Below, in pieces: positions 10,284 through 39,007 of a stretch of DNA of 41,365 nt; the stretch's first letter is position 1; each line of letters opens with the position of its first letter. Source of the stretch: a virus (taxonomy: Duplodnaviria > Caudoviricetes). The stretch covers positions 1-41,365 of IMG/VR virus record IMGVR_UViG_3300017908_000157; one strand, written 5' to 3'. The notes beneath the pieces were generated by a model. It saw only the letters and a program-made list of their open reading frames with translations. It was not told the DNA's origin and did not search any database. A program made the translations under genes and the position numbers.

Positions 10284-10313
10284 CGGGGCTGAATTAACAA
10301 ATTGGAGATTGAT

Positions 10314-10517
10314 ATGGCATGGACACCACCAACCATGACTAAAGAACAAATGATTGATAGGGACATAGTAAACTTTATAGAGTATCTAAAAAATGAGTAT
10401 GGCATAACTAGGGTCTTGCCAAGCATAAAAATAAAAGATGGGGAGATTGTCATTTACGGTGGCTATACTGGGATAGCAATTAGTAGCGATGGTAGCGTTG
10501 TTTACGAGACTAAATAA
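10314..10517 (+). CDS. Hypothetical protein (antisense island 1)
   Basis: GGAGATTG RBS, ATG 10314, own promoter and terminator. Confidence 0.8.
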   Translation: MAWTPPTMTKEQMIDRDIVNFIEYLKNEYGITRVLPSIKIKDGEIVIYGGYTGIAISSDGSVVYETK

Positions 10518-13658: not shown

Positions 13659-13688
13659 TGGTGAAGGTTTAATTTGGAGATTGAGATT

Positions 13689-13841
13689 GTGAGATACAAA
13701 GTAAAAACGCAAATGATAATGGAAGAAACCCTATGGGTTGAAGCTGATAACGAGGATGATGCGAAAGCAATGGCTCATGCAGAAGCTTCTTATGTTGATG
13801 GCAGTTGGTACGATGCTGAGATTTTGGAGGAAGAAGAATGA
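13689..13841 (+). CDS. 50-aa acidic hypothetical protein (island 2)
   Basis: GGAGATTG RBS + GTG; MRYKVKTQ...EILEEEE. Confidence 0.7.
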   Translation: MRYKVKTQMIMEETLWVEADNEDDAKAMAHAEASYVDGSWYDAEILEEEE

Positions 13842-14148: not shown

Positions 14149-14315
14149 GCATTAAGAAAGTAATCGGGTATACTGGTTTGATTTTGGTTTTCCTTTTCGT
14201 CGTTGGCGTGCAAGCTTATGAATACGGCCTAATTGCCGCCATCTTAAATTGGGTTATTGTCGCATTTATATTCGCTATAATTATTTACTGCATAAAGCTC
14301 ATTGAGGAGAGTTGA
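14145..14315 (+). CDS. 56-aa two-TM membrane protein
   Basis: ATGA overlap; two hydrophobic segments. Confidence 0.65.
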   Translation: MSIKKVIGYTGLILVFLFVVGVQAYEYGLIAAILNWVIVAFIFAIIIYCIKLIEES

Positions 14316-14316
14316 T

Positions 14317-14613: not shown

Positions 14614-14780
14614 GCTACCAACATCAACTAGCAATCGAATTTATGAGCAAGCTATCTGCAAGCGTTGTGATATATCAATGTATGCAGGCAGAGTACAGTG
14701 AGAATTGGATAGATTCAATAAATGGCGAATTCGACAAGACATACGAAGAAATTTACGGCTATTTGCCGCATGGGTGTTGA
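14610..14780 (+). CDS. 56-aa hypothetical protein
   Basis: ATGA overlap; tiles the island. Confidence 0.55.
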   Translation: MSYQHQLAIEFMSKLSASVVIYQCMQAEYSENWIDSINGEFDKTYEEIYGYLPHGC

Positions 14781-14781
14781 T

Positions 14782-15027
14782 ATGAAATTCACACCATTTA
14801 ACGAACCCGTGCCCAACATAGACTACGAATATTCGCCCCAACAAACAGTAAGCGATACTGCAAATAGAATGATGCGTGATTTTTACGAAGAGTTAGAGGG
14901 CGTAATATGTTGCGCAATGGCTGCCGGAGTTAGCGCAAGCCAGATAATCATGACGGAGCCAAAAATGATTACGAATGGATATGAGGTAAAGATGGTGTGC
15001 AATATAAGTTTCGAGGGGTTGATCTAA
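14782..15027 (+). CDS. Hypothetical protein
   Basis: ATG right after the previous stop; converges on head morphogenesis gene. Confidence 0.6.
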   Translation: MKFTPFNEPVPNIDYEYSPQQTVSDTANRMMRDFYEELEGVICCAMAAGVSASQIIMTEPKMITNGYEVKMVCNISFEGLI

Positions 15028-16030: not shown

Positions 16031-16294
16031 GTGAAGAAAGTTATCGTTGAGGTGCCAGAAGATTACACCAGAATTCGTTACAGTAGAAAAGGTGATGAAT
16101 GCTCTATGTATTACGCAAAAGAAGTCAGCTTTACACCTGAGTCGAAAATACAACAACCATCCGTACCGATTCAGTTTGTTTGGCACGATGGATGTCTTTA
16201 CCATGAAGATTCATGCCGAAACATGGAGCTACCAATAGAAGAAAACTGCACCGTCGAGCAAATCGGCGCTGTGCTTTATGTGAGGGGTGAGTGA
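16031..16294 (+). CDS. Hypothetical protein (island 3)
   Basis: GGAGAAGATT RBS + GTG 16031. Confidence 0.7.
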   Translation: MKKVIVEVPEDYTRIRYSRKGDECSMYYAKEVSFTPESKIQQPSVPIQFVWHDGCLYHEDSCRNMELPIEENCTVEQIGAVLYVRGE

Positions 16295-16620
16295 TGTTTA
16301 AGGTCACAGAAAAGGCGATGAGGCCAGCGTCACCAAATAGAAACTGCTTTTATTGCGGCGAGCCTGTTGGGGGTACGCATAGGGATTCTTGCGTACTTAT
16401 AAATAGAAAAGTAAAGGTAAAGGTTTCTTTTGAAATGGTTATTAATGAGCCTGCGTCATGGGATAAAGAGTTTATAGAATATGCTAAAAATGAAGCCTCG
16501 TGGTGTACCGATAATATATTGAATGATATATGCGAAAAGGCAGATAGCGAGGGATGCTCTTGCGGGTTTGGAAGCGTAGAGGTTTTAGAGTTGACGGATG
16601 ATGTATTTCTGGATGAGTAG
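16291..16620 (+). CDS. Cys-rich hypothetical protein (possible Zn-binding)
   Basis: CFYC...H...C; overlap with previous gene. Confidence 0.7.
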   Translation: MMFKVTEKAMRPASPNRNCFYCGEPVGGTHRDSCVLINRKVKVKVSFEMVINEPASWDKEFIEYAKNEASWCTDNILNDICEKADSEGCSCGFGSVEVLELTDDVFLDE

Positions 16621-16644
16621 TGGCGGTTGTCGCCACTACTCTTT
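16616..16644. terminator. Hairpin between island 3 and portal gene
   Basis: AGTAGTGGCG-gttgt-CGCCACTACT perfect 10-bp stem. Confidence 0.6.
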
Positions 16645-16693
16645 ACCCGGAGATTTGGGCTTCCCTGTTGGTTTTCTTGGCGTATACCCTTGG

Positions 16694-18013
16694 TTAACTA
16701 TCAATCTCACCATCCCCACCATCGTCAACCACTTCTTCAAACTCTGGCTTTTTCTCATAACCTGCAATCTCAAGCATCTGGTTAGGGTTAAACACCTCTT
16801 GCATGGTCTTGGTGTTAATCTCAGCCATTTTCAGCGCTAGATTAAGTTTAGCCTCGTCACCTGCTGCGGTTAGGTCATCAAACTCAACTATCTTGTTCGC
16901 ACCGTCGTAATCAGTGTATTCGGTTAGCCATTCAAGCATTGAATACATTTGCATTAACAGGTAGTTTTCGCGGCGAGACTGTGCGGTTTGTTTGTCGATG
17001 CCTGTATCTTGCTCACCTGCTAGTACGCCAGTCTGAGCACCTACCAATCCCTTAGCAGACCAGCCCCGACCTGCTGCAACGTCTTCAAGCGCTATCTGAC
17101 TAGCCTTATCGATTGCTGCAATAGAGCCGCTGTCTCCGATGCCCTTTAATTCCATGCCGCCTAAGTATGGCACAGCGTCAAAGCTATCCTGCATGTCTGT
17201 GATAGCCTGAGTCAGGTCGTCCATTTCATCATCACTTGGAGCGCTACCCGAAGTATCAGCCGCAGCTTGCAATACCGCTCGCATAGCTGCCTTTTTCCAG
17301 AAGCCCTCTGCACCTGCACCGCGCACCTTTTCCCAATCCATTAAAGCGTTGTAGATAGGCTCTAGGCATGACTCGCCGTAGATGGTGTTGCCCACTGCGC
17401 CCTCATTCCATATCCACACACGGCTATGGTGGATAGTCATTTGCTCTGTTCCGTCGCGCTGGCTTGATTGTCTTACACCGTTTTGCTGATAGGTGTAATG
17501 AAGCGGCATTCCATAACGAGGCGATTGCGGGTCAAGGTCGAGATTACCTGGTATTAATTGCCCTTCCCACGCTGGCATCAAATCAATGATGTTATCCATG
17601 GTCGTACGCTGCATGGGCTTGTCAAGTGTTAACCCATCAGCAACGCGCACGATAACACCCGCGTAATGACCAACGGACTGCATGTCATCAACCTGTCGAA
17701 GCTTAGGCCACATTTTAAGGCGCTTGGCAAACTGTTTAAATTGCTCGTCTATTTCGTCATCGTTAATCTTAACCATTGGCGGCGTTAACCAACACATATC
17801 AATCGGACGCTTAACCGCTGCGCGAGCTAAACCGATACGGCGATACACTGAGTAATAAAACCAGAAATCAAGCGCTAACGGATAACCATAATCGCTGTAA
17901 GCCTTGCCGTGCTTTGTGCCTGTGAAGTGACCTACACCAGAATAAAACGGCAAGCGCTTCAATGCTGAATTAAGCTTTAATTGCCCCGTCGTGGGCTTAA
18001 TGTGTGGTTTCAT
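16694..18013 (-). CDS. Portal protein (DUF1073-like)
   Basis: Follows TerL; YGYP, GAGAEGFWK and LVGAQTG motifs. Confidence 0.85.
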   Translation of the reverse strand: MKPHIKPTTGQLKLNSALKRLPFYSGVGHFTGTKHGKAYSDYGYPLALDFWFYYSVYRRIGLARAAVKRPIDMCWLTPPMVKINDDEIDEQFKQFAKRLKMWPKLRQVDDMQSVGHYAGVIVRVADGLTLDKPMQRTTMDNIIDLMPAWEGQLIPGNLDLDPQSPRYGMPLHYTYQQNGVRQSSQRDGTEQMTIHHSRVWIWNEGAVGNTIYGESCLEPIYNALMDWEKVRGAGAEGFWKKAAMRAVLQAAADTSGSAPSDDEMDDLTQAITDMQDSFDAVPYLGGMELKGIGDSGSIAAIDKASQIALEDVAAGRGWSAKGLVGAQTGVLAGEQDTGIDKQTAQSRRENYLLMQMYSMLEWLTEYTDYDGANKIVEFDDLTAAGDEAKLNLALKMAEINTKTMQEVFNPNQMLEIAGYEKKPEFEEVVDDGGDGEIDS

Positions 18014-20913: not shown

Positions 20914-22242
20914 TCACCCGTTTATGTTGTTTGATAGTATCGGCGCGTTGATATTGTTTGACAATACGCGCTGGTTAATGTTCGTTTCTTTATCGACTAT
21001 TATCGCAATTCCACCAACAATAGCAACTATGCTAACGCTAGGTGTTGAAATGGTGTAGCTTACTGTTGATTCTGGTTGCGGCAATGTCGCTGTTGCTTCT
21101 GCGCTGAATGTTGGCGCAGGTACCGTGTAGTTAACATCTGCAACGTAGCCCGTCAGTGTCGCCGATGCGTCAACACTGAATTGAGGTGCTGCGATTGTAT
21201 AGCTGACATCTGCGATTGGTTGAGGTAATGAAGCCTTAGCACTAGCGTTAAACGCTGGCGCTGCAATACTGTAATCCACGGTAGCCGTTGGTTGTGACAG
21301 TGTCACATTAGCCGATGCGCTAAATGTTGGCGCATTTACAGTGTAAGCAACTGACGCACTAAAGCCTGGTATTGTGGCGCTCGCTTCTGCGTTAAATGAC
21401 GGCGCGTTAACCGTGAAATCAATATCGCCTATCGGTTGCGGCAAGTTGGCCGTTGCGTTGGCTGTAAAGCTTGGTGTATTGACAACAAAAGACACATCGA
21501 TAATCGGTTGTGGCAACGTCGCGCTACCATTGACGCTAAAGCTTGGCGCGTTAATCGTAAAACTTGCGCCTGCGCTTGGTTGTGGCTGCCATGCATCAGC
21601 GCTAGCCGTGAATGTCGGAGCGCTTATTGTGTAGTTTACATCTGCGCTTACTGGGTTAAATATACCATCATCAACCTCAAAATCATATACGCGCAGATTG
21701 CCGTCAGTATATAACGCATGGTAAAAACCAGCGTAATTACCTGTTGTTATTTCCGAGTCAGTGACAGAAATCACTTCTACACCGTCAACTTTTGCGGCAA
21801 TAGTGCTGCCAATCGCGCTTAACTCAAATTCGTTACTTTGCGATGCGTTGAAACTGACCTGTACTGATGCCAGCAGGCTTGCAGAGCCGTTGATGCGCTT
21901 AAATAGAAAAAGATTATCCTGACCGCTAACTGCTTGGCGCATATTTAACGAGTAGTTTGTGCCTGCTGTGCCGCGCTGATTGTCAGACCTAGCAACCAAC
22001 TGAAACCTGTTATCTGCCCCGCCTGCGTTTATTGTTGCTGTGACAATCTGGTCACTTTGCCCAGTATCTATCCAAGCTGAGTCCCCAGTTGCTGCAAACT
22101 TTACAGCCCCACTTCCATCCAATTCTACAAGATTTGGATCGTCCTGATTCCACCCAGTGCCAACAATATCAATATCTGGCGCATGGTCCGCTATATCAGT
22201 GCCGTTAGCTCCATTGAAATCATCAAAAACTAAAATGGCCAT
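20914..22242 (-). CDS. Fibre-like virion protein: N-terminal lectin-like beta domain plus about 9 x 24-aa repeats
   Basis: Repeats of the type PxADVxYTxxAPxFxASAxATLPQ. Confidence 0.65.
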   Translation of the reverse strand: MAILVFDDFNGANGTDIADHAPDIDIVGTGWNQDDPNLVELDGSGAVKFAATGDSAWIDTGQSDQIVTATINAGGADNRFQLVARSDNQRGTAGTNYSLNMRQAVSGQDNLFLFKRINGSASLLASVQVSFNASQSNEFELSAIGSTIAAKVDGVEVISVTDSEITTGNYAGFYHALYTDGNLRVYDFEVDDGIFNPVSADVNYTISAPTFTASADAWQPQPSAGASFTINAPSFSVNGSATLPQPIIDVSFVVNTPSFTANATANLPQPIGDIDFTVNAPSFNAEASATIPGFSASVAYTVNAPTFSASANVTLSQPTATVDYSIAAPAFNASAKASLPQPIADVSYTIAAPQFSVDASATLTGYVADVNYTVPAPTFSAEATATLPQPESTVSYTISTPSVSIVAIVGGIAIIVDKETNINQRVLSNNINAPILSNNING

Positions 22243-22820
22243 TACATAACGCCATATAAATCATCAATGTGATGCGTTTGGTTTGATGACGCTCTAACCA
22301 AGTAATCTCCTGATTTTGACAACTCTGGCGCAGTTCCTACATGCTTTTTCACACCTTGAACATAAATATACAAGTGCGGCCTATGTGCTTCTACGTCTTG
22401 TGTTAGCGTGATTTTAATCCAGCCGTTAAAAGGTGTAACTTCTTTCTGTGTGATCGGCAAACCCTTTGCGCGTTTGAAGTCGTATTCTGTGGCGTTGGCG
22501 TGTGGGCATATCGTGAAGTTGGCGTAACTCAAGCAGTCATCAGCAAACGACTGATTGACAGCGTCAATGCTTACCATGTGAGCAAGTAACTGCTGGTTAC
22601 CTTGCCCAACAGGATGACTAGACATAACGTTAAACTCTTGAACGCCGCTTGAAACTGCAAGCCAGAATCCTTTAGCGCTTTCATCTGTTGCAGCCTGTAA
22701 GGATGTTATGCACTGGTTTTTAGTCAAGAAAACAACAATCATGTCGTGGCTAATCATGCGCCCTTTCTGCTCTGTGTATTCCTTAGATTCTTGAAGTGTA
22801 TCGAATTGACTTAACAGCAT
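22242..22820 (-). CDS. Hypothetical protein, first gene of late operon
   Basis: GAGGA RBS; TAATG coupling with next gene. Confidence 0.7.
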   Translation of the reverse strand: MLLSQFDTLQESKEYTEQKGRMISHDMIVVFLTKNQCITSLQAATDESAKGFWLAVSSGVQEFNVMSSHPVGQGNQQLLAHMVSIDAVNQSFADDCLSYANFTICPHANATEYDFKRAKGLPITQKEVTPFNGWIKITLTQDVEAHRPHLYIYVQGVKKHVGTAPELSKSGDYLVRASSNQTHHIDDLYGVM

Positions 22821-22868
22821 GATTATTCCTCGCGTATGTATTGACTTAGTATACGCTTTGTTCAGGCG

Positions 22869-22897
22869 AAAAAAAAGCCTGCGGGAGATGCAGGCTT
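22869..22897 (-). terminator. Intrinsic terminator separating early and late leftward units
   Basis: AAGCCTGC-atctccc-GCAGGCTT with a run of 8 T. Confidence 0.9.
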
Positions 22898-22932
22898 AAA
22901 GGGAGATTGTGAAAGTGTGATTGATTGGTCAC
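22869..22932 (-). ncRNA. Candidate anti-Shine-Dalgarno sRNA (~65 nt)
   Basis: TTGACT-N17-AATGAT promoter (22967-22939), CAAUCUCCC seed, terminator with AUCUCCC loop. Confidence 0.5.
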
Positions 22933-22935
22933 GGG

Positions 22936-23118
22936 TTAATCATTACACGGCACATACTTTAAGTCAAACGGGTATTTCGTGTTTAACGCATCAATGTTGT
23001 GCGTTTGCTTCATGTGTTGCGCGAATGCGTTTATAGCTTCGTGCGTTGTATTGGCAGATTTAAACACTTTGTAATGCTTTCTGTCTTGGTGCATGTATGC
23101 GAATTGAGGGGCTAGCAT
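22936..23118 (-). CDS. Hypothetical protein
   Basis: ORF track; AGGA RBS. Confidence 0.6.
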   Translation of the reverse strand: MLAPQFAYMHQDRKHYKVFKSANTTHEAINAFAQHMKQTHNIDALNTKYPFDLKYVPCND

Positions 23119-23243
23119 TTGCGTTTCCTAACCATCAACTTCAACAACTCAAATCCACCAAAAACAATGCCGCAACTTCCCACCGTTAAAAACACAAGCA
23201 TTGATAAGTGATATAGCAACCCTGTTTGTATAAATCCGTACAT
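23112..23243 (-). CDS. 43-aa single-TM protein (MYGFIQTGLL...RKRKC)
   Basis: AAGGAG RBS, TGATG coupling. Confidence 0.6.
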   Translation of the reverse strand: MYGFIQTGLLYHLSMLVFLTVGSCGIVFGGFELLKLMVRKRKC

Positions 23244-23599
23244 CAGTCTTGCTCCTTGCGCAGACTCAGCTCATGCTCTTCACGCGCCAAGGAAATTATA
23301 TTCTTTGCCGTTGGTTTGAATTTACCAGTGTCTGGCCAATTCTCACCATCCCAGTCTAAAGTGAAGCGATTGCAAAACATCCACGACTGCATAAACCAGT
23401 CATACAGGCTGTGAGCATCCTCGCCCTCACCCCAATAGCTCAACCCACCTCCAACCATAAGACAGCCTGTAACGCTACTTCCTTTTGAATCTGCGTAATC
23501 AGTTGGACACTCATTATTCTGCCACACATCGTAAAACTGGCTCGGGGCAACCTCAAAAAGTCGCTTACTGACTTTTTTCTCTATTCTTGGGTTCATCAC
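23243..23599 (-). CDS. Hypothetical protein
   Basis: ORF track; AAGGAG RBS. Confidence 0.75.
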   Translation of the reverse strand: MMNPRIEKKVSKRLFEVAPSQFYDVWQNNECPTDYADSKGSSVTGCLMVGGGLSYWGEGEDAHSLYDWFMQSWMFCNRFTLDWDGENWPDTGKFKPTAKNIISLAREEHELSLRKEQD

Positions 23600-23946
23600 T
23601 CTTGCTCCTTGCGTAGTTGTTCAATGCTGGTTGTCTCAATCCTATGCTCGTGACTTTTGAGCATGTAGAGAGGTATATAGCAATTGCCGTCGGTGTTAGG
23701 GTAAAAAGACCCTTCCTCTACTTTTGCGTATTTAATTTGAGAGCCGTTAGTAAAACCAACATGCAACAACTCTTTAGTCGCAAGCTCTTCCTCCAACTCC
23801 TTCACACGCTCATTAGCCTTTGCTAGTTGTGTGCGTAGGGTTTCGATTTCACTTCTAGCATTACCGAATAAATCAGCCAAAGCTACCGCACCCTGCCTTC
23901 TGTGCAATCTGGCTTGCACTCTCAACATATCTTGTAAATCATCCAC
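23596..23946 (-). CDS. Hypothetical coiled-coil protein
   Basis: GGAGATTG RBS + GTG. Confidence 0.75.
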   Translation of the reverse strand: MDDLQDMLRVQARLHRRQGAVALADLFGNARSEIETLRTQLAKANERVKELEEELATKELLHVGFTNGSQIKYAKVEEGSFYPNTDGNCYIPLYMLKSHEHRIETTSIEQLRKEQE

Positions 23947-23964
23947 TTCCCAATCTCCTTTGTT

Positions 23965-24092
23965 CGCTTTGGTGAATGACTGACCGATACCACACTGACC
24001 AAGCTCATTACCCTATTTGCTATGCTTTCGGGCGCTTCTTGCGTTACATCCCTTGTAGCCATTCCCAAAACGCCCTATTGCTAGGGACGTTT
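23965..24092 (-). ncRNA. Structured ~130-nt leader RNA
   Basis: GCAA-tetraloop hairpin plus long-range and nested stems with G-U pairs; no ORF. Confidence 0.45.
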
Positions 24093-24094
24093 AA

Positions 24095-24135
24095 ACATTA
24101 CACCGTAACCCATAACTTAACAACTCTGACCAGTT
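24095..24135 (-). promoter_or_regulatory. FadR-like box promoter, class A
   Basis: AACTGGTCAGAGTTGTT-A-N17-TAATGT. Confidence 0.75.
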
Positions 24136-24356
24136 AAACTTCCGCTCGTTAACGGCATCAATGCAAACGCTCTAGCATAAGCGCCACCCTGTTTGATTTT
24201 GTTGCGGCGTATCGTTTCGCTGATAATCGAATGCTTGCGCGCTGCTCTTGAAATATCGCGCGACGTTAAGCCCAGGTGTTGAGCTGTTTTCTCACTACTC
24301 GTTAGATGCACGTTTTTAAATACTGCATCGTAAATTCGTTTTGCTGTTTTATCCAT
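24117..24356 (-). CDS. Hypothetical HTH-like protein
   Basis: Likely start MDKTAKRIY overlapping ninH stop; TAQHLGLTSRDIS. Confidence 0.55.
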   Translation of the reverse strand: MDKTAKRIYDAVFKNVHLTSSEKTAQHLGLTSRDISRAARKHSIISETIRRNKIKQGGAYARAFALMPLTSGSLTGQSC

Positions 24357-24537
24357 TGCCGTACTGCTCGCTGATGTTTGCAAATAAATGATATTTCCCG
24401 TCACGCTCGATAACCATGTGCTCAACTTTCAACTTCATGTATCGAGTTAACGTACCGCGCTGTATGCGTAACATGCGGGCAACCTTTGATTGATTGCCGC
24501 GTGTCATTACTAATAGGTCTGATATTGTTAGCATCAC
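24349..24537 (-). CDS. ninH: NinH-like (Fis-like HTH) protein
   Basis: TISDLLVMTRGNQSKVARMLRIQRGTL resembles lambda NinH. Confidence 0.75.
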   Translation of the reverse strand: MMLTISDLLVMTRGNQSKVARMLRIQRGTLTRYMKLKVEHMVIERDGKYHLFANISEQYGNG

Positions 24538-24791
24538 AACCCAGCCTCATTCTCAAGTTTTGTTCTGTATGCTTCGTGGAGTAGCGCCCTAGCCGTGCCA
24601 GTAAATAAATCGTTATTTACATCATTGGCTATCGTGATTGAGTCATCGAGTAACATTTCAACAATTATTTCCATTTGTTTTTTGTCGGTGGCCATAGCCT
24701 CAATCACATCGTAATACTTAATCGGCAACCCGTTATCATCACCCTCACGCAGCCTATCAACCGCCTCGGCTAGTTCTTGTTCGTTTATCAT
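24534..24791 (-). CDS. Hypothetical acidic protein
   Basis: GGAG RBS before MINEQEL. Confidence 0.65.
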   Translation of the reverse strand: MINEQELAEAVDRLREGDDNGLPIKYYDVIEAMATDKKQMEIIVEMLLDDSITIANDVNNDLFTGTARALLHEAYRTKLENEAGL

Positions 24792-24964
24792 TGTTCTTCT
24801 CCGTAGATTTCGAATGCTGTTACTTTCTCTGTCGCGCATCTAAGCTCGTCAACGCTCAATGCAACACCTTCGCCAGATTCGCCTTCAACGCAAACCTTCA
24901 CATCCAAATCACCATGCTTAGCGATAAGCTTAACCAAATCTCGTACTAGTATTGTTGCTTTCAC
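24788..24964 (-). CDS. 58-aa hypothetical protein (MKATILVRDL...)
   Basis: GAGGAG RBS; GTGA and ATGA overlaps on both sides. Confidence 0.65.
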   Translation of the reverse strand: MKATILVRDLVKLIAKHGDLDVKVCVEGESGEGVALSVDELRCATEKVTAFEIYGEEQ

Positions 24965-25170
24965 TTTGCTAACTCCTCTAGTAATACATCAGCAATATTT
25001 ATTGCGTCAGAGGCTATATTTTTAAAATGCTCCGGCGTCATTGGCTCGCAGTTGGGGTTTGCCATTATTCCCTGCATAGCCATAGCTGCAAAGTATTCGC
25101 GCTTGGTTAATCCCCATTGTGGTTCGTATTGTTCGTAATAGTTATTTGGATATACTGCATCGTCTTTCAC
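24961..25170 (-). CDS. Conserved phage hypothetical protein
   Basis: GLTKREYFAAMAMQG motif; GGAGATTG RBS. Confidence 0.8.
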   Translation of the reverse strand: MKDDAVYPNNYYEQYEPQWGLTKREYFAAMAMQGIMANPNCEPMTPEHFKNIASDAINIADVLLEELAK

Positions 25171-25198
25171 TTTTCAATCTCCTTTAAAAACTAAGCGC

Positions 25199-25238
25199 AC
25201 CTTAACACCGATTATGCGCTTAACAGATTAGACCAGTT
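25199..25238 (-). promoter_or_regulatory. FadR-like box promoter, class B
   Basis: AACTGGTCTAATCTGTT-A-N16-TAAGGT. Confidence 0.75.
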
Positions 25239-25752
25239 AGATTATGTCGTAGTCGTGATTCAACGTGTCTATACCATACTGGGCATTGTAGAACTCACCA
25301 CTGTTTAGCCTATCCCACGCCTCAGCCTTACTCATAGTCGGCTTGATGGGTTTTAGTGAGTCCGTAGGCACAAGCTTATTAAGCCCTTCACCTTTAACCC
25401 ATGACATATAATCATCCGTAAAAACAACAATACACTTGCGACCATTCCACTTATGCGTCCACTTCTCGCCCTCTTGCTTAGCCTCTTGCTCTTTCACATA
25501 AGCTTCGAATTCGGCGCGGGTGCATATGACTTTTCTTGATGTGTACTCTTCTGTGCTGTATAGGAATTTATCATCAAAAACTATTACGTCTAATCCATCA
25601 TACTTCCATCGACCACCAGCCCACGCATAAGCATCAGCAACGGTTTTCTTTGTCGTCACATGCTCCAGGTATCGCTCACACTTGTCGCTCTGTCCGACAT
25701 ATTCTGCAAACTCTCTAACCGCAGCCCTTGCGTTATCATTCCAATCAATCAT
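25237..25752 (-). CDS. Hypothetical protein
   Basis: ORF track; GGAG RBS. Confidence 0.75.
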   Translation of the reverse strand: MIDWNDNARAAVREFAEYVGQSDKCERYLEHVTTKKTVADAYAWAGGRWKYDGLDVIVFDDKFLYSTEEYTSRKVICTRAEFEAYVKEQEAKQEGEKWTHKWNGRKCIVVFTDDYMSWVKGEGLNKLVPTDSLKPIKPTMSKAEAWDRLNSGEFYNAQYGIDTLNHDYDII

Positions 25753-25921
25753 TTGTTTTGTTCTCCAATTGCATTAACTCATCCCATGCCTTTTCGTGCT
25801 CACTTGACATCCTTGCCTTAGTGAACGCTATCTTAGCTATTTTCCTCAACCTCTCATTCTCCCTCACCAAATCAATCCAATCCTGTGGCGTTGGTGCTGT
25901 TGCTTTGATTTCTTTAGTCAT
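25745..25921 (-). CDS. Hypothetical protein
   Basis: GGAGG RBS before MTKEIK. Confidence 0.6.
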   Translation of the reverse strand: MTKEIKATAPTPQDWIDLVRENERLRKIAKIAFTKARMSSEHEKAWDELMQLENKTND

Positions 25922-26120
25922 AACCTGACACCTCCCCATCTTCATAAGTCCATCCTACGACGTGAGAATGCTCCCATACATAACCGATTATCTTGAATGT
26001 TACGCCTAGCTCACCGTAAAAAGCTTGTGTTCTGTATATCCGGCCTTCGTCGTCAATTGTCCTTACTGTCTCACCGTGCTTTGGTAGTCCGTCGCCTGGT
26101 TTAATCCAATTATCACTCAC
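25914..26120 (-). CDS. DUF551-like protein
   Basis: WIKPGDGLP...VVGW; GGAGATTG RBS. Confidence 0.6.
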   Translation of the reverse strand: MSDNWIKPGDGLPKHGETVRTIDDEGRIYRTQAFYGELGVTFKIIGYVWEHSHVVGWTYEDGEVSGYD

Positions 26121-26277
26121 TTCTCAATCTCCTCTTGTTTATTGGTTAACTATACCAACCCATCGATAAAAACAAATGTCGCTCACCGCATCTTCAATCA
26201 AAAAATCTTATCGTAACCATAAATTTCTTTAATGGGTAAGCATATTTTGCATACAAAGTAAAGTAACTATTTGATTT

Positions 26278-27654
26278 TTAACCAGTAAACGCCGTTGACC
26301 CCTTTCTGCTCCCCCTAGCCTCCTCTTGATTCATCAAGTCACCTATCTGCACATCAGTTAAGCAGGTAAATAATCCGCTCTCATTCGTTTTCAGATAAAC
26401 AGTACGAGGCAAATCGCCATGCCTAAACTTAACAGGTATCAACTCAACAACGCCACGTAATGCTGTATTCTCGTTTACTACTTCCTCCCTATGGCTTGCG
26501 ATAATTAAATCGCTATCAGCTTCAATAGCGCTTGAACCATATATGTTTGACATTTGCGGGCGCTTTTCTTTATCCGTACCCCTGTTAGCCTGAGCCAATA
26601 GCAACACAGGCACTTTCACTTCTTTAGCCAGTTGCTTTAACCCCCGTGTAACTTCGCCAATCGCCAAATCTTCACGGTCTGCTTTTGGCAATGTCATAAG
26701 CTTCAAGTAGTCGATTACTATTAACGCCAACTTTCCACGACGCTTGATAGTAGTTTTTACCCTGTGTCGTATTTGCTGGAGTGACAAAGCCGGAGTGTCA
26801 TCATAGAAAATATCCAACTGCTTTCTATCCATCATTCCTAGCACATCGCCAAGCTTTGCAAATTGATAATCGTTAAGCTCTCCAGTCTTTAATGCTTTCG
26901 GTCCGATACCCGCAGTGATACCAACAAATCTATCCATGATTTCATCTTTCGACATTTCCATGCTAAAAAACTTCACCGCCTCACGCTTTGCTATGTGACT
27001 GCATATCAACTGCGCGATTAATGTTTTACCATGTGACGGTCTAGCAAATAGCGTAACAAGCCAATCTTCACCAATGCCTATGATTTCATCATCTAGCCTT
27101 TCAATGCCAGTCTTTAAACCTACCGCACTTCTATCGCCTTTTTGTCTTGCCTCTAGCCTGTCAATAAAGCTCGAACTTAAATCACCTATATGATTCGGCT
27201 CATACCCGCCGCTTAGGTCAATCTTTTGCGCCTCATTGCCAATGTATTGCAATACTTCGCTGTTTGGCTGCTTGTCGTATATCTGGCTTATGCCGTTGTG
27301 CAGTACGCCCATGATTTCTCGTGCGTTGTACTTATCCGCTACAATCTCAGCATACTGTAAGGCTGTTGCCGTTGAAGGTGTGCTTTTGCCTAATTCGGCG
27401 ATATAAGCAAACCCGCCGCACTCATCCAACTTGTTTAGCTTATCCAGCAAGTCAGTGATGGTGATTAGGTCGCGGTCTTTTAGTTTCGTCATGGCTCGGT
27501 ATATTTCCTGGTGAGCCATGTTATAAAACATTTCTGGTCTTAGCGTGTCGGTCACTTCTAGCGCTTTATGCTCGTTAGCATCCATCATCATTAAAGCGCC
27601 TAAAACGGCTTGTTCTGCCTCAATGCTGTGTGGTGGGATGTTTGTGTTTTCCAT
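26278..27654 (-). CDS. dnaB: Replicative DNA helicase
   Basis: PPHSIEAEQAVLG, ARPSHGKT, IVIDYL and SSAIEADSD motifs. Confidence 0.95.
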   Translation of the reverse strand: MENTNIPPHSIEAEQAVLGALMMMDANEHKALEVTDTLRPEMFYNMAHQEIYRAMTKLKDRDLITITDLLDKLNKLDECGGFAYIAELGKSTPSTATALQYAEIVADKYNAREIMGVLHNGISQIYDKQPNSEVLQYIGNEAQKIDLSGGYEPNHIGDLSSSFIDRLEARQKGDRSAVGLKTGIERLDDEIIGIGEDWLVTLFARPSHGKTLIAQLICSHIAKREAVKFFSMEMSKDEIMDRFVGITAGIGPKALKTGELNDYQFAKLGDVLGMMDRKQLDIFYDDTPALSLQQIRHRVKTTIKRRGKLALIVIDYLKLMTLPKADREDLAIGEVTRGLKQLAKEVKVPVLLLAQANRGTDKEKRPQMSNIYGSSAIEADSDLIIASHREEVVNENTALRGVVELIPVKFRHGDLPRTVYLKTNESGLFTCLTDVQIGDLMNQEEARGSRKGSTAFTG

Positions 27655-28163
27655 TACTTACCCCGCGAACTATTCCATGTGAAAGATGCAAGCATTCCAT
27701 TATCATCTTTAAGCCTATCGACAACCCTCTCACCAATAACAGATCTAAGTCCGTCAATGTCAAGGTTTGAAACAAGGCAGGTGGGCAGCATTTCACGATA
27801 CCTAATATCAATAATCTCATTAATCATTCTGTACTCGTAATCAGTAAGCTTGTAAGCACCAATCTCATCAATTACTAGATAAGGGCAATCCCTTGTTATT
27901 TGATCCATTATTTCTCTTTCTGGCATTTGGTTGTGAGCTAAGTTATCCCTAAACGCCCTGCCTATTCCTGATGCTGTAGACATAACTGCGCCATCAATTG
28001 AATTTACAATGCAATTAGCCAGCATAGTTTTGCCTGTTCCGCAATTCCCAACCATAATAAGGTTTCTTTTTTCTGACGCTGCCGAAATTGCGCTACCTTT
28101 TGCAATCTCCATTTCTGGGTTACTTGATTTCCAGTCTTCAAATTTAGTGTTTTCATATCTCAT
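27654..28163 (-). CDS. dnaC: DnaC/IstB-like AAA+ helicase loader
   Basis: GNCGTGKT, LVIDEIG, SNL and GERVVDRL motifs. Confidence 0.9.
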   Translation of the reverse strand: MRYENTKFEDWKSSNPEMEIAKGSAISAASEKRNLIMVGNCGTGKTMLANCIVNSIDGAVMSTASGIGRAFRDNLAHNQMPEREIMDQITRDCPYLVIDEIGAYKLTDYEYRMINEIIDIRYREMLPTCLVSNLDIDGLRSVIGERVVDRLKDDNGMLASFTWNSSRGK

Positions 28164-28165
28164 AA

Positions 28166-28891
28166 TTACCAGCCTTTTGAGTAGTCTTGTGTTTTAGTTG
28201 GATTTCTAAAATCTGTATTAGGTTTTGATTTTGCAGCTGCTAGGTAACCATTAAAGTTTTTTGCACTAAAAAGCGTTGACGGTCTCAGATATTGGCACAT
28301 CTTTTCATCATTACCCCATTCTGCGCTTTTTGCGTCTACAACCATTTTGATATCATCCGAAGTGAAACCGTCTGATATTCTTGCGGTAATATTTTGGATG
28401 TGTGACTTAGTTGAGTGCTTGTACTTGCTGCCAGTCACTTCATTAAGATATTCAAGGCAAAGTCGCGCTTGCTCGACAATATCTTTATTTGGTTCTTGGT
28501 TCTTGGTTAATGGTTTATGGTTAGCATTGCTTTCGCTATGCGTTCGCATACCTTTCGCATTATCTGCGCTATCCTTTTGCTTTGCCCATCTAGCTTCAGC
28601 GCTCTTTTTGGCTTTCTCTGACTTCTCCTTGTATGCATCAATATCCTCACTGGCTCTTTTGTTAATCCAGCCCTCTTCGGTCTCGCACCAAAACTCATTT
28701 AGAACCTGTCTTATTTCCTCTTGATTCTCGCGCATAACAATAAGCCTTGCTATTGACGCAATTTCACAAGGCAAAGGCTTTTCTGTGTCGTAGTGAAGGT
28801 CAAGCATGCGTCTATATGCGATATCTTCTAGTGGTGTTAAGTGCTTGGTTGACTTTGAATAGTCACCAATATTGAATTGGTAGTAATGCAT
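28166..28891 (-). CDS. Replication initiator (YdaU/DUF1376 N-terminus plus conserved phage C-terminal domain)
   Basis: MHYYQFNIGDY start; YLRPSTLF motif; upstream of dnaC and dnaB. Confidence 0.85.
   Translation of the reverse strand: MHYYQFNIGDYSKSTKHLTPLEDIAYRRMLDLHYDTEKPLPCEIASIARLIVMRENQEEIRQVLNEFWCETEEGWINKRASEDIDAYKEKSEKAKKSAEARWAKQKDSADNAKGMRTHSESNANHKPLTKNQEPNKDIVEQARLCLEYLNEVTGSKYKHSTKSHIQNITARISDGFTSDDIKMVVDAKSAEWGNDEKMCQYLRPSTLFSAKNFNGYLAAAKSKPNTDFRNPTKTQDYSKGW
28489..28578. repeat. Iteron-like repeats inside initiator gene (probable origin)
   Basis: 5 x 7-mer (T/A)TGGTTN followed by 5 degenerate 11-mers beginning GC. Confidence 0.6.
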
Positions 28892-28954
28892 GGTATAATT
28901 AACCTCGTAATGCACGTTTAACCCCGTAGGCTTGCCAGAGCCAATTATCGGGGT

Positions 28955-29149
28955 TTATTTTTTTACGTACTGTGTTTTCTTCTCAAATCCTAAATCGTCA
29001 AGAATTTGCTTTGTTGGGTTTCTCTTGCCATTTATAACAGAGTTGACAAGCGCAACGCTTACGCCAAGATATTTGGCATACTCAACTTGATTCTTGAAAT
29101 CAAGGTAAGCCCTCTTTTTCATCTCTTTTATTATAACTTCACATTGCAT
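28955..29149 (-). CDS. Cro/XRE-like HTH regulator
   Basis: NQVEYAKYLGVSVALVNSVINGKRNP. Confidence 0.85.
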   Translation of the reverse strand: MQCEVIIKEMKKRAYLDFKNQVEYAKYLGVSVALVNSVINGKRNPTKQILDDLGFEKKTQYVKK

Positions 29150-29170
29150 AATATTAAACCTTTTTTGTTT

Positions 29171-29198
29171 ATTATACCAGTGTTGTGCTGGTGGTCAA
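29171..29198 (-). promoter_or_regulatory. Sigma70 promoter of replication operon with spacer palindrome
   Basis: TTGACC-N16-TATAAT; ACCAG-N7-CTGGT at 29176-29192. Confidence 0.75.
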
Positions 29199-29456
29199 TT
29201 ACTTTGAGTTAAGCGCATTTGCTACCACTTCTGAGCAATCTCCGCATAGGCATTTATTCCCATGCTTTTCAAACCCGACAACGCCTATATTCTCTCCAAT
29301 TTTAAATTTATGGTTGCATCGAAAACATGAGCTCAGCTTGTCTCGCATTTTACTTCTTATTCTCACAAAATTTTCATCGTAAACGCAAAAGTTTGATTTC
29401 GACCACTTGATATTGTAATTCGTGGTTTTTGTTTTTGTTATGACCAAGTCACTCAC
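29199..29456 (-). CDS. Zn-finger hypothetical protein
   Basis: CFRC...CGDC. Confidence 0.7.
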   Translation of the reverse strand: MSDLVITKTKTTNYNIKWSKSNFCVYDENFVRIRSKMRDKLSSCFRCNHKFKIGENIGVVGFEKHGNKCLCGDCSEVVANALNSK

Positions 29457-29638
29457 TTCATTTCCTCCACTATAACCGCCGTCCTCGTTTCATGTATCAC
29501 ATACCCGCCATAAACCTTATTGCGTGATTTACCGCTGTATAACGGCATTCCTTTAGGGTTTGCGTGTAAGTGTTCGTCTAGTGCTATTTGTGCGCGTGGT
29601 GCGCGTGAGTCGCATTTAAATCGGTGTTCTTTCATCAT
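29453..29638 (-). CDS. Hypothetical protein
   Basis: Overlaps both neighbours. Confidence 0.65.
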   Translation of the reverse strand: MMKEHRFKCDSRAPRAQIALDEHLHANPKGMPLYSGKSRNKVYGGYVIHETRTAVIVEEMK

Positions 29639-29943
29639 TTCACCTGTATCAATTCTTTTTCGTAAAGCTTCATTTGCGTTTCTTGTAGCGCCCTCATTTG
29701 GTCATGCATATCAACCTTGCCGCTGTCTAACCATGAGTGACACCAATTGCAGCCATACACGCCGAATAAATCGGGCGATTTAAACCCCATGCCGCGATAG
29801 TTGCTTTGCAGGTGGCAAAATACAACTGTCTCACCATCTTGGCACTGCGGGTGAACTCGCAAGCTGCATGATTCGTTACGTGCGCTTTCGCGTATTTTCT
29901 TTGATTTAATCATTAGACTTTTCCTTCTCCATAAAATACTCAC
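29635..29943 (-). CDS. DUF1364-like nuclease-domain protein (start may be MIKSKK)
   Basis: IRESARNESCSLR, TVVFCH and GCNWCH motifs. Confidence 0.75.
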   Translation of the reverse strand: MSILWRRKSLMIKSKKIRESARNESCSLRVHPQCQDGETVVFCHLQSNYRGMGFKSPDLFGVYGCNWCHSWLDSGKVDMHDQMRALQETQMKLYEKELIQVK

Positions 29944-30385
29944 TCTCGCGTGGAATCATGTGTTTAATGCCGCGCTCTGTCATGTATTGTTCGTGTTTTA
30001 GCATTGCATTAAATCGCTGCCCTTTGTCAGCTATGTTGTCACCTGATTTAGCCCAGGAAAGGCGATTGCCTTGCGCGTCAACACCCAACCATTGAGCCGT
30101 AAATAATTCATGCGCATCATCAGCGTTAAATGGTCGTTTGCCGTAATGCTCGCCTTTTGGGTTTATCATTAGCGGCATAGTTACGCCGTTAGCAGCCATA
30201 AATTCAGCGGTTGAAGCCATCCAGCTACGCCAGAGACGGGATGAACTCCAATTACCCGATTCAGGATAAGGCTCTAGTGTGATTTTAATGTCCTTGCCTA
30301 GCTTGAAAGCCTCTTGCAGGTGGAATTTAACCATCAAAGTCCAATCGTTAGGCTTTGCTATTGGCAGCTTATCGGTTATTTTCAT
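29906..30385 (-). CDS. NinB/Orf-like recombination accessory protein
   Basis: LWRSWM...DAHELF; early-operon position. Confidence 0.5.
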   Translation of the reverse strand: MKITDKLPIAKPNDWTLMVKFHLQEAFKLGKDIKITLEPYPESGNWSSSRLWRSWMASTAEFMAANGVTMPLMINPKGEHYGKRPFNADDAHELFTAQWLGVDAQGNRLSWAKSGDNIADKGQRFNAMLKHEQYMTERGIKHMIPRESEYFMEKEKSND

Positions 30386-30576
30386 TACTCACCTGCCTTT
30401 ACAAATTCGCTAACTGACACATTGAAAAACATTGCCATTTTAGATAATAGGCGTGGATTGTTCTCGCCTAGCAATTTTGAAAGATACGCATTAGTTATCT
30501 TTAGGTATGCAGCTAGGTCTTTTTGCTGCTTTTCGTGCATTGCGCACATTACTTTTACTGATTTTTTGAGATTCAT
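30385..30576 (-). CDS. Cro/XRE-like HTH regulator
   Basis: QQKDLAAYLKITNAYLSKL...FFNVSVSEF. Confidence 0.85.
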   Translation of the reverse strand: MNLKKSVKVMCAMHEKQQKDLAAYLKITNAYLSKLLGENNPRLLSKMAMFFNVSVSEFVKAGE

Positions 30577-30691: not shown

Positions 30692-30720
30692 TGCCACATC
30701 GAATCAACTGGAGATTTTAA

Positions 30721-30933
30721 ATGCGAGTATATCGCGGTCAATGGCGCAAGCCACTAAAGCAGAAAACGCCTAATGCTGGCACAAAAAACAAAGCACAGCA
30801 TAAGCGTAAATTTTTATGCAATGACGGCCCGCTATCAGGTCAATCATTATTTTTAACTGATGGTATCAGTGCAATTTTTACAATAAACGGCATTAAAGGC
30901 CGTTACAACAATGGAGATTGGGAACAATGCTAA
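30721..30933 (+). CDS. Basic hypothetical protein
   Basis: GGAGATT RBS. Confidence 0.7.
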   Translation: MRVYRGQWRKPLKQKTPNAGTKNKAQHKRKFLCNDGPLSGQSLFLTDGISAIFTINGIKGRYNNGDWEQC

Positions 30934-34343: not shown

Positions 34344-34370
34344 GCCTTACCTATTAAAGGAGATTGAAAG

Positions 34371-35069
34371 ATGAGTAAGCCGATTGATTTCTGGGCTAAG
34401 GTCGAAAAGACCAACCCGAAATACACAAAAAACGCCAACGTATCAGGCCAGCAGCGAACCGCTGTTGATGCGCAATATAAAAAGAAAATGATTACTGAGC
34501 AATTTGGCATGTATGGCTTAGGCTGGGGCGTAAAGCCTGAATCTGAAAAATACGAGCGATGCCACTTTGAGAATCAAACCTGCATCTTAACTTATACAGC
34601 AACGGCTTTTTATAAGTGGGAGGGTGAGGTTGCAGAGTTCCCAATCGCCGCACAAATAAAAGAGTCATACGTAACTAAAAACGGCTCTGGATATTTAAAG
34701 ATAGATGATGAGGCAGTCAAAAAGGTTCGCACCGATGCGCTAACAAAAGGGTTTACAGACCTTGGCTTTTGCGCTGACATTCACATGGGTATGTTTGACG
34801 ACCAAGATTATGTTCACGGCGCTCAAATGGCGGCATATGCTAAAGAGCAGGATGAAAAAGAAGAAGCGGCGAAAAAGTCATACGATGAAATAAAGGCGTG
34901 GTTAGCCAATGAGCTTAAATCAGCTGAGACGGTTAGCAGTAACGAAGCGTATAACCGCGCCATTGATAGGTTAAAACAGAAAGTTGAAACGAAGTGTAAA
35001 GTGGCTGGATTGGCTAGTCGCGGATTTACCGATAAACTTGAAAACTCTAAACGGGAGATTGTGAAATGA
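34371..35069 (+). CDS. Rad52/Sak-like single-strand annealing protein
   Basis: FGMYGLGWG and DEAVKKVRTDALTK...LGFCADI motifs; near ssb. Confidence 0.65.
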   Translation: MSKPIDFWAKVEKTNPKYTKNANVSGQQRTAVDAQYKKKMITEQFGMYGLGWGVKPESEKYERCHFENQTCILTYTATAFYKWEGEVAEFPIAAQIKESYVTKNGSGYLKIDDEAVKKVRTDALTKGFTDLGFCADIHMGMFDDQDYVHGAQMAAYAKEQDEKEEAAKKSYDEIKAWLANELKSAETVSSNEAYNRAIDRLKQKVETKCKVAGLASRGFTDKLENSKREIVK

Positions 35070-36525: not shown

Positions 36526-36529
36526 AAAC

Positions 36530-37833: not shown

Positions 37834-37862
37834 GTGGGTGTTGATTGAAAAGGAGATTGGAA

Positions 37863-38048
37863 GTGAATATATACCTTGTTAGATATAGCGGATTATGGCT
37901 TGGAGGAGAGGCTTTTGTATTTGCTGATAACGAAAGCGAAGCCTTGGAGAAAGTAAAGAATGATAAGCGCACGTCGAATTTTACGGAAGTAAAAGTAAAA
38001 AAAGTTGAATCGTCTGGTGTGTTCTACAACAACAACGGCGATTACTAA
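37863..38048 (+). CDS. Hypothetical protein
   Basis: GGAGATTG RBS + GTG 37863. Confidence 0.75.
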   Translation: MNIYLVRYSGLWLGGEAFVFADNESEALEKVKNDKRTSNFTEVKVKKVESSGVFYNNNGDY

Positions 38049-38730: not shown

Positions 38731-38743
38731 TTTGGAGATTGAT

Positions 38744-39007
38744 ATGAGTGAATGGATAAGTGTTGATGATAGGTTGCCAGAGATGATTGGTAGAGGCGAT
38801 AGAAGTGAGTCAGTCCTAATTCTTAGAGACACAAAAGACAGGAAGAATTCATCTCAAGCAATTAGCTTTTTGTGGTCAGATGCAATGATTATGAGCATGA
38901 GTTTTAATGATGAATTTTCTCATACTGACACATGGAACGGTCAAGAATCGAATGGGTATCGCGTAACTCATTGGATGCCACTACCTGAGCCACCTAAAGG
39001 AGAATAG
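38744..39007 (+). CDS. DUF551 protein
   Basis: WISVDDRLP...VTHWMPLPEPP. Confidence 0.85.
   Translation: MSEWISVDDRLPEMIGRGDRSESVLILRDTKDRKNSSQAISFLWSDAMIMSMSFNDEFSHTDTWNGQESNGYRVTHWMPLPEPPKGE

What the first reader, a model, noticed from the sequence alone, without database searches (positions are those of the whole stretch)
22869..22967. Candidate phage sRNA complementary to the GGAGAUUG ribosome-binding site shared by early genes
Seen: the minus strand gives TTGACT-N17-AATGAT with an extended TG, then about 65 nt without an ORF, GUGACCAAUCAAUCACACUUUCACAAUCUCCCUUUAAGCCUGC-AUCUCCC-GCAGGCUUUUUUUU. It exposes AUCUCCC twice: once single-stranded and once as the terminator loop. CAAUCUCC is the exact complement of GGAGAUUG, the RBS at 10304, 13676, 23951(-), 25175(-), 26125(-), 30913, 34359, 35054, 37852 and 38734. 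Pairing extends to 14 perfect nt over the RBS and start of the 35066 gene (GGGAGATTGTGAAA), with near matches at 25170 and 34371. Established: seed plus terminator plus poly-U is the layout of Hfq-type sRNAs. Inference: one RNA could silence many early leaders at once, acting as an off switch at the early/late boundary. It might also target host mRNAs.
Basis: partly seen in the sequence, partly recalled or inferred. Interest (0 to 1): 0.85.

Follow-up and report, generated by a model that had tools for sequence, protein, structure and literature searches.

The report
Alteromonas phage sRNA against early leaders
Related marine Alteromonas phages keep a promoter, a 16-base stretch and a terminator that predict a 64-base RNA complementary to a ribosome-binding tag on their own non-structural genes but not their structural genes, so the RNA likely turns those genes' translation down as a group, though no transcript or effect has been measured.

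Summary
The window is an Alteromonas siphophage related to PB15 and XX1924. Twelve distinct copies of the element were found. Ten keep a -35/17/TGn-AATGAT promoter inside a poorly conserved 60-aa gene; all keep a terminator hairpin whose stem sequence varies; nine keep an identical single-stranded 16-mer, ACUUUCACAAUCUCCC. Its complement tag, GGAGATT, stands in 39 of 233 distinct non-late leaders of eight relatives, 0 of 169 late leaders and 3 of 630 sampled host-family leaders. Predicted duplexes reach the start codon in 34 of 39. Two first-reader points fail: the terminator-loop copy is in 1 of 12 RNAs, and the 14-nt match at 35066 is not conserved. Against: three copies changed the seed, and in the one complete such genome the tags stayed, so co-variation is not shown. 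No discrete transcript was seen and no Alteromonas genome was searched. Best reading (0.62): a small RNA that represses the phage's own early translation. This scan noted the same pattern on other DNA (118 findings); my searches found the RNA not in print, only the tags (mycobacteriophage SAS).

The parts
22936..23118 (-). 60-aa ORF, last gene of the leftward early operon; its last codons (C-N-D-stop) hold the -10 box
   Evidence: (19-25% identity to PB15/XX1924 homologs, C-N-D invariant); no PHROG or Pfam family
22939..22967 (-). predicted sigma-70-type promoter, TTGACT-17-TGn-AATGAT
   Evidence: -35-like hexamer, 17-nt spacer, TG and AATGAT kept in 10 of 10 copies next to this ORF
22869..22932 (-). 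predicted 64-nt small RNA (start inferred 7 nt after the -10 box)
   Evidence: homologs 59-70 nt; no transcript mapped
22917..22932 (-). weak 5' hairpin (GUGA/UCAC), present with different sequences in the homologs
   Evidence: predicted folds only
22901..22917 (-). single-stranded seed CACUUUCACAAUCUCCC: anti-start/spacer half then anti-Shine-Dalgarno half
   Evidence: 16-mer invariant in 9 of 12 RNAs; predicted unpaired probability 1.0 in the window RNA
22869..22897 (-). intrinsic terminator, 8-bp stem, loop AUCUCCC (loop not conserved), U8 tail
22846..22876 (-). separate conserved T-run ... GCGTATACTA element, likely the late promoter (-10 TATACT at 22853-22848, no -35); neighbour, not part of the RNA
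   Evidence: cut off from the RNA gene by an inserted ORF in L016/L146
35053..35068 (+). best predicted target in this genome: leader of the 335-aa gene (PHROG 1376, unknown function), 14 perfect pairs
   Evidence: net -15.9 kcal/mol; extent of match not conserved
26118..26132 (-). tagged leader, GTG start, 68-aa gene
   Evidence: (net -15.4)
25168..25182 (-). tagged leader, GTG start, 69-aa gene
   Evidence: (net -10.9)
23944..23958 (-). tagged leader, GTG start, 116-aa gene
   Evidence: (net -12.3)
30710..30723 (+). GGAGATT leader of the 70-aa first gene of the rightward arm (weak match)
   Evidence: hybrid -9.9
30913..30929 (+). tagged leader, DNA methyltransferase gene
   Evidence: (net -9.6)
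34359..34373 (+). tagged leader, exonuclease gene (PHROG 7838)
   Evidence: hybrid -14.4
37852..37865 (+). tagged leader, GTG start, 61-aa gene
   Evidence: (net -13.5)
38734..38746 (+). tagged leader, DUF551 gene
   Evidence: (net -7.9)
10304..10316 (+). tagged leader of a plus-strand cassette among late genes
   Evidence: (net -9.9)
13676..13691 (+). tagged leader of a plus-strand cassette among late genes, GTG start
   Evidence: (net -10.3)

Best explanation
The element is a conserved gene layout for a predicted ~64-nt RNA whose single-stranded seed is complementary to a Shine-Dalgarno tag on the phage's own non-structural genes and likely represses their translation as a group. Shown: promoter, seed and terminator are conserved; the tag is confined to non-late leaders. 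Inferred: host sigma-70 polymerase makes the RNA from a promoter inside the last early gene (processing of the early mRNA's 3' end could add to it); AAUCUCC pairs with GGAGAUU while CACUUUC reaches over the purine spacer onto the start codon, best when it is GUG; this blocks the 30S subunit, probably with host Hfq on the U tail. As the RNA builds up, replication, recombination and accessory genes would fall silent, while late genes, which lack the tag, keep the ribosomes.
For: Promoter features in 10 of 10 copies beside the 60-aa ORF although that protein is only 19-25% identical in PB15 and XX1924; in L010/L016, where a 51-aa gene separates ORF and seed, the Asp codon reads GAC (-10 lost) and a new TTGACA-18-TGn-AACTAT stands before the seed (one event). 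Seed invariant in 9 of 12 RNAs, 7 of the 10 found without using the seed. Terminator stems of 5-8 bp with different sequences in 12 of 12. GGAGATT in 39 of 233 distinct non-late and 0 of 169 late leaders (Fisher 2e-10); with GenBank gene calls for PB15 and XX1924, duplex <= -14 kcal/mol in 11 of 68 non-late and 0 of 56 late (p 0.001). After GGAG non-late leaders continue A,T,T,G (76, 65, 61, 60 of 118), as the seed predicts and the 16S end (GGAG-GUGA, read) does not; a 16S anti-SD control does not split the classes (46 of 233, 31 of 169). Host-family samples: tag 3 of 630, duplex <= -16 in 0 of 630, against 35 of 233 non-late. None of 700 random window 17-mers is as selective; 0-1 of 400 in four relatives. 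GTG starts in 22 of 39 tagged against 23 of 80 other GGAG leaders (p 0.005); duplex reaches the start codon in 34 of 39. Hfq in 5 of 5 host-family genomes.
Against: No discrete transcript: four RNA runs hold only contigs that run through the region. Three of 12 copies changed the seed; in the one complete such genome (G780) 5 GGAGATT leaders remain and the loop shows no selectivity (364 of 400 random 17-mers as good), though the whole RNA still ranks 8 non-late genes in its top 10. Co-variation rests on one cassette (TTG in G782, TAG in L058, matching L058's loop), and GGAGATA leaders also occur in 5 of 8 type I genomes. The extra pairing of the 5' half is marginal: rank 47 of 1260 permutations for the 17-mer, 72 of 560 for the 16-mer. 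Without the selectivity term, 2-13 of 150 random 17-mers pair as many leaders. Relatives share leaders by descent (39 leaders, 23 upstream families), so p values are optimistic. PT11-V22, in which a loose seed-plus-T-run scan found no such element, has about 9 tag-like sites in 93 kb, at its control level. No Alteromonas chromosome was searched.
Confidence: 0.62

Rival explanations
1. A real sRNA, but its selected target is a host mRNA or sRNA (as for StxS, PreS or the anti-sRNAs); the match to phage leaders is left over from its birth as an inverted leader.
For: The 16-mer is invariant although early gene sets differ; no conserved phage leader matches all 16 nt; type II and III seeds changed without a clear change of tags; precedent in PMC7547250 and PMC12197685.
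Against: Best match in 630 sampled host-family leaders is -15.8 kcal/mol, below 35 phage leaders; wobble-tolerant 12-13-nt sites are not above the reversed control in 41 genomes of one genus (17 against 31) and 9 against 4 in 5 genomes (one context-free list, not followed up); GcvB over its cut-off in 0 of 5. None of these genomes is shown to be Alteromonas and one search covers under 10% of two genomes.
Confidence: 0.13
2. The unit is a lambda pR'/tR'-like late leader: a short terminated transcript read through by an antiterminator, with the seed as its loading site or as an activator site for the late promoter.
For: Promoter, short leader, terminator, then the late operon is the layout of pR'/6S/tR' (PMC7547250, passages); seed end lies 45-50 nt before TATACT in 8 type I copies.
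Against: A separate conserved TATACT element follows the terminator; in L016 an inserted ORF puts it about 700 nt from the seed, the seed staying with the terminator; spacing is 64-65 in type II; no Q- or N-like hit among 72 proteins scanned; does not explain the tags.
Confidence: 0.08
3. Tag and inverted copy are binding sites for a protein (a RegA-like translational repressor on RNA, or a DNA-binding protein that reads both orientations); no base-pairing is involved.
For: A shared tag on non-structural leaders fits a protein repressor; Pope et al. left RNA or protein open for SAS (PMC3203893); RegA is recalled.
Against: An RNA-binding protein would not read the complement; for a DNA site the fixed place before start codons and the variable gap between tag and GTG half fit poorly; the inverted copy sits single-stranded between a conserved promoter and terminator.
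Confidence: 0.07
4. The seed acts only as the 3' UTR of the leftward early mRNA, folding back on ribosome-binding sites of the same transcript; no free RNA is made.
For: The terminator also ends that operon and three tags lie in it.
Against: 8 of the 11 tagged window leaders are on the other strand; the internal promoter is conserved and appears to have been replaced when a gene was inserted.
Confidence: 0.07

Closest known systems
Start-Associated Sequences (SAS) of Cluster K mycobacteriophages (PMC3203893, passages read)
   Same: Asymmetric extended Shine-Dalgarno tag a few nt before starts, confined to non-structural genes, rare in the host, with a single inverted copy not at a gene start in four of the genomes; function left open (RNA or protein).
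   Different: Other sequence (GGGATAGGAGCCC), host and phage group; SAS favour ATG, these tags GTG; the passages read do not place the inverted SAS in a promoter-terminator unit.
c4 antisense RNA of phages P1 and P7 (PMC12197685 section 7 read)
   Same: Phage RNA that pairs in trans around a ribosome-binding site of a phage mRNA and blocks translation.
   Different: c4 acts on the ant mRNA in immunity; here 4-11 unrelated leaders per genome are matched, no C4 hit in Rfam, no integrase or antirepressor hit among 72 proteins.
CyaR (RF00112) and Betaproteobacteria toxic sRNA (RF02278)
   Same: Short RNA with an exposed UCUCC/CCUCC anti-Shine-Dalgarno stretch, terminator and U tail; CyaR's consensus has AAUCUCCCUU in its terminator loop.
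   Different: Scores 18.5 of 47 and 22 of 50 bits; chromosomal RNAs with host targets (recalled); the loop likeness holds for the window copy only.
StxS and lambda 6S RNA (PMC7547250, passages read)
   Same: Short terminated RNA at the early/late border of a phage; StxS binds Hfq and represses a phage-borne gene at its ribosome-binding site.
   Different: StxS is the by-product of the antiterminated late promoter and is cut from a 258-nt precursor; here the late genes appear to have their own promoter past the terminator and the predicted targets are many early genes.
PreS (lambda) and VpdS (VP882) (as reviewed in PMC12197685, parts 1-2 read)
   Same: Hfq-dependent phage sRNAs that favour lytic growth.
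   Different: Described targets are host dnaN or Hfq competition, not a shared tag on the phage's own leaders.

Membership tests
Trans-acting Hfq-type sRNA | Own promoter | tested here: met
   Consensus and conservation only; activity not measured
Trans-acting Hfq-type sRNA | Intrinsic terminator with U tail | tested here: met
   12 of 12 copies, stems differ in sequence
Trans-acting Hfq-type sRNA | Conserved single-stranded seed, no ORF | tested here: met
   16-mer invariant in 9 of 12, predicted unpaired 0.79-1.0
Trans-acting Hfq-type sRNA | Discrete transcript | tested here: inconclusive
   Four RNA runs, contigs only
Trans-acting Hfq-type sRNA | Hfq binding and target repression | not testable with these tools
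   Hfq gene in 5 of 5 host-family genomes
CyaR (RF00112) | Rfam gathering score 47 bits | tested here: not met
   18.5 bits, E 2; no Rfam family at gathering in L051, L058, L007
Betaproteobacteria toxic sRNA (RF02278) | Rfam gathering score 50 bits | tested here: not met
   22 bits, E 0.077, driven by UCUCC and terminator
c4 RNA of P1/P7 | Match to the C4 model | tested here: not met
   Not among the 5 matches at E <= 10
c4 RNA of P1/P7 | Antirepressor mRNA as target | tested here: not met
   No antirepressor hit among 72 window proteins; tagged genes are methylase, exonuclease, DUF551 and unknowns
StxS / lambda 6S (pR'-tR' leader) | Made from the antiterminated late promoter | tested here: inconclusive
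   Position fits; separate TATACT element, split in L016 and no Q hit argue against
SAS of Cluster K | Tag just before starts of non-structural genes only, plus a lone inverted copy | tested here: met
   3 of 13 other window copies are not at starts
SAS of Cluster K | Sequence GGGATAGGAGCCC in a mycobacteriophage | tested here: not met
   Tag is GGAGATTG; relatives infect Alteromonas

The most novel reading that the evidence does not exclude
Lytic phages write a private postcode into the ribosome-binding sites and start codons of their early genes and carry one small RNA that reads it, an RNA-only early-to-late translation switch. New genes join the regulon by landing behind a tagged leader cassette, and because the tag is shared across the clade the RNA would also silence the early genes of a later-arriving relative (RNA-based superinfection exclusion). 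This would explain the mycobacteriophage SAS motifs, open since 2011, and PB15 and XX1924 allow a direct test.
Probability: 0.4. Interest if true: 0.88.

Novelty: new variant of a known kind. Interest (0 to 1): 0.66.

Why it matters
Known phage sRNAs in the papers I read act on one phage mRNA or on host RNAs. One RNA silencing a whole class of the phage's own genes through a shared ribosome-binding tag would be a new way to time infection and would give the SAS motifs a reader. This scan has noted the pattern many times, mostly in uncultured phages by the notes shown; this clade includes two deposited phages with named Alteromonas hosts and a natural promoter-down variant, so it is a practical place to test the idea.

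Tried and rejected
Rfam: only sub-threshold likeness. RNAalifold on MAFFT alignments failed to recover the terminator because the stems were misaligned; stems were compared from single folds instead, and model R1 is mostly a sequence model. Exact-terminator scan: 0 hits. Rows dropped as unrelated (no matching promoter or terminator hairpin, by eye): 11 of 19, 3 of 10, 14 of 21, 1 of 2, 9 of 18; R1 found none of the 16 dropped loci it was given. RNA runs had small word shares (0.05-0.08) and contigs only; 4 of 5 were laid; no conclusion. Host search: no Alteromonas genome was reached; the one exact 13-nt site fetched from G001 is inside a methionine synthase-like ORF. AgvB-like sponge of GcvB: no GcvB over cut-off in 5 genomes. 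Function of the 335-aa and 60-aa proteins stays unknown. Decayed plus-strand gene: 3-nt spacing to a 3-aa frame in the window, yet the 16-mer is invariant; rejected. The DnaB search in plasmids gave nothing useful.

Full report
Setting. The window is the whole record (41,365 nt): a tailed phage with head, tail and lysis genes on the minus strand (1-22820 and 39592-end), a leftward early arm (22936-30576) and a rightward early arm (30721-39565); no integrase hit among 72 proteins scanned. The 8 records that match 21000-25000 are all Alteromonas phages, best PB15 and XX1924. The element lies between the last leftward early gene and the first late gene.

Observation. All stated features are present. 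GGAGATTG occurs 14 times against 1.03 in shuffles; one is the element's complement, 10 precede ORFs at 2-6 nt, 3 do not. The promoter overlaps the last codons of a 60-aa ORF. By itself the promoter match is ordinary (2 found, 5.0 expected).

Conservation. Homologs came from blastn, the 60-aa protein (6 loci each), seed-free patterns (7 of 10 viral, 7 of 21 metagenome and 9 of 18 viral loci kept) and seed patterns (8 of 19 and 1 of 2 kept). They give 12 distinct RNAs of 59-70 nt. Ten fit the seed-free pattern: 7 carry ACTTTCACAATCTCCC exactly, 2 (L008, L058; type II) carry AUCUCCCAA in the loop of a new hairpin, 1 (L051; type III) reads ACUUUUCAAUACCCCC. L010 and L016 carry the exact 16-mer and were first found through it; L010 was found again without it. 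All ten keep a TTGACA-like hexamer, 17 nt, TG and AATGAT (AATGATT was part of the pattern, but the window, PB15, XX1924 and L003-L008 were found without it). The 60-aa protein is 19-25% identical in PB15 and XX1924, yet C-N-D-stop is kept with the codons AAT GAT in these two and seven more copies. In L010/L016 a 51-aa gene lies between ORF and seed; there the codon is GAC and a new TTGACA-18-TGn-AACTAT stands before the seed, one event that fits selection for a promoter next to the seed. Terminator stems differ in sequence and stay paired in 12 of 12 single folds; the loop AUCUCCC is private to the window. A conserved GTATACTA follows the U tract; in L016 an inserted 195-aa ORF separates it from seed and terminator, so it is a separate element, likely the late promoter.

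Targets in the phage. I called genes with a simple script in the window and 8 relatives and merged near-identical leaders of the 8 complete genomes (524 to 402; the G784 fragment left out). 'Late' means same strand as the RNA and downstream of it; all others are 'non-late', including plus-strand cassettes among late genes. GGAGATT: 39 of 233 non-late, 0 of 169 late; GAGG shows no bias (72 of 233, 56 of 169). GenBank gene calls for PB15 and XX1924 agree: duplex <= -14 kcal/mol in 11 of 68 against 0 of 56. With opening costs, 13 of 44 non-late and 0 of 28 late window leaders reach -8 kcal/mol, and each genome's own RNA ranks 8-10 non-late genes in its top 10 in 8 of 8 genomes. The tag is not a better Shine-Dalgarno: after GGAG the leaders read A,T,T,G, while the 16S end of a host-family genome pairs with GGAGGUGA, and a 16S control does not split the classes. 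Tagged leaders favour GTG (22 of 39 against 23 of 80) and the duplex reaches the start codon in 34 of 39; the 5' half beats 498 of 500 random 9-mers but ranks only 47 of 1260 among its own permutations (72 of 560 for the 16-mer). Excluding leader antisense, 0 of 700 random window 17-mers match the seed's selectivity, 0-1 of 400 in four type I relatives; by raw count 2-13 of 150 random 17-mers do as well. Unrelated recombination genes (RecT-like in G002, exonuclease VIII in G780, PHROG 7838 in the window and G782) all have tagged leaders. The 14-nt match at 35066 is an extreme of this genome only.

Controls outside the clade. GGAGATT followed by RTG at 2-8 nt: 5-13 per genome in 9 of 9 element-bearing records (one count is the element itself), P24 0, H103 2, ZP6 2, R22Y 1, AD45-P1 0, PT11-V19 1, PT11-V22 11 rows at about 9 sites with 10 in its control. 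Kinship confounds this. In 400 kb each of G753 and G696 (family reached through the ALT1413 probe, which PMC6474216 assigns to Alteromonadaceae) the tag is in 3 of 630 leaders and none reaches -16 kcal/mol, against 35 of 233 non-late and 1 of 169 late phage leaders. No Alteromonas chromosome was searched.

Results against. No discrete RNA could be seen. Type II and III seeds pair the 39 tagged leaders much worse (mean -9.5 to -12.0 against -16.1). G780 (type II) keeps 5 GGAGATT leaders, and its loop is unselective. The type II loop fits a second tag class, GGGAGATA; L058 has two GGAGATAG leaders in 4 kb, one in a cassette that reads GGAGATTG in G782, but 5 of 8 type I genomes also have GGAGATA leaders.

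Mechanism. Shown: conserved promoter-seed-terminator unit and a complementary tag confined to non-late leaders. Inferred: transcription by host polymerase, pairing over Shine-Dalgarno, spacer and start codon, exclusion of the 30S subunit, Hfq help (gene present in 5 of 5 family genomes). A near-consensus promoter suggests the RNA is made from early on and acts as it builds up. Confidence 0.62; rivals are host targeting (0.13), late attenuator (0.08), protein-read sites (0.07), cis-only 3' UTR (0.07).

What is known. Eight searches listed no paper on a phage RNA that reads a shared ribosome-binding tag; the library lacks most subscription papers. Read: PMC3203893 (passages), PMC7547250 (passages), PMC12197685 (parts 1-2 of 6, section 7, passages), PMC6474216 (passages and one supplement row), PMC11194452 (passages). 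The PreS preprint was seen as a listing only. CyaR, toxic sRNA and RegA biology is recalled. The closest precedent is the SAS tag with its lone inverted copy. It works like an anti-Shine-Dalgarno sRNA but is not a member of CyaR, RF02278 or C4. Earlier notes of this scan hold 118 findings with these words, none look-alike in sequence and none naming this tag; they are unchecked and not counted as support.

Verdict. A real conserved element, most likely a self-targeting anti-leader sRNA; new variant of a known kind; interest 0.66.

Noticed in passing
window 22846-22876 (-); L146 1633-1662; L097 29250-29360: T-run followed by GCGTATACTA just before the first late gene, a likely late promoter with no -35 box; Pseudoalteromonas phage H103 has hairpin, T-run and ATATACT before its terminase genes too. 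The activator is unidentified (candidate: 62-aa HTH-like ORF 24349-24537).
   Followed up: partly
window 10314-10749, 13689-15027, 16031-16840 (+): Cassettes of small unknown genes inserted against the direction of the late operon; their first leaders match the seed well.
   Followed up: partly
L008 5175-5276, L058 4001-4103, L051 716-816: Seed variants: type II moves AUCUCCC into a 16-nt hairpin loop and fits a GGGAGATA tag class; type III reads UUUUCAAUACCCCC.
   Followed up: partly
L016 1664-2251 (-): A 195-aa ORF that looks like an HNH-type nuclease (by eye, not scanned) has inserted between the RNA terminator and the late promoter.
   Followed up: no
L041 / L010: The same 27,754-nt phage contig sits in a 'Pseudomonadales' MAG; as kin infect Alteromonas it is probably misbinned.
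   Followed up: no
window 13981 leader; L043 9677; L044 13905: A variant leader GGAGGTTTGGGAGTG pairs the seed at about -18.5 kcal/mol through G-U wobble.
   Followed up: partly
L070 8045-9133 and its homolog in G780: One late gene (PHROG 2534, ejected protein) has a GGGGATTGTGT leader that pairs the seed at about -15.5; a possible exception.
   Followed up: no
L043 and L044 against the window: PB15, XX1924 and the window have different replication, recombination and (PB15) head modules yet keep this element at the same border.
   Followed up: partly
L158 (G696:C1:2410939-2411090): Weak GcvB-like match, 30.9 bits against a cut-off of 42.
   Followed up: no
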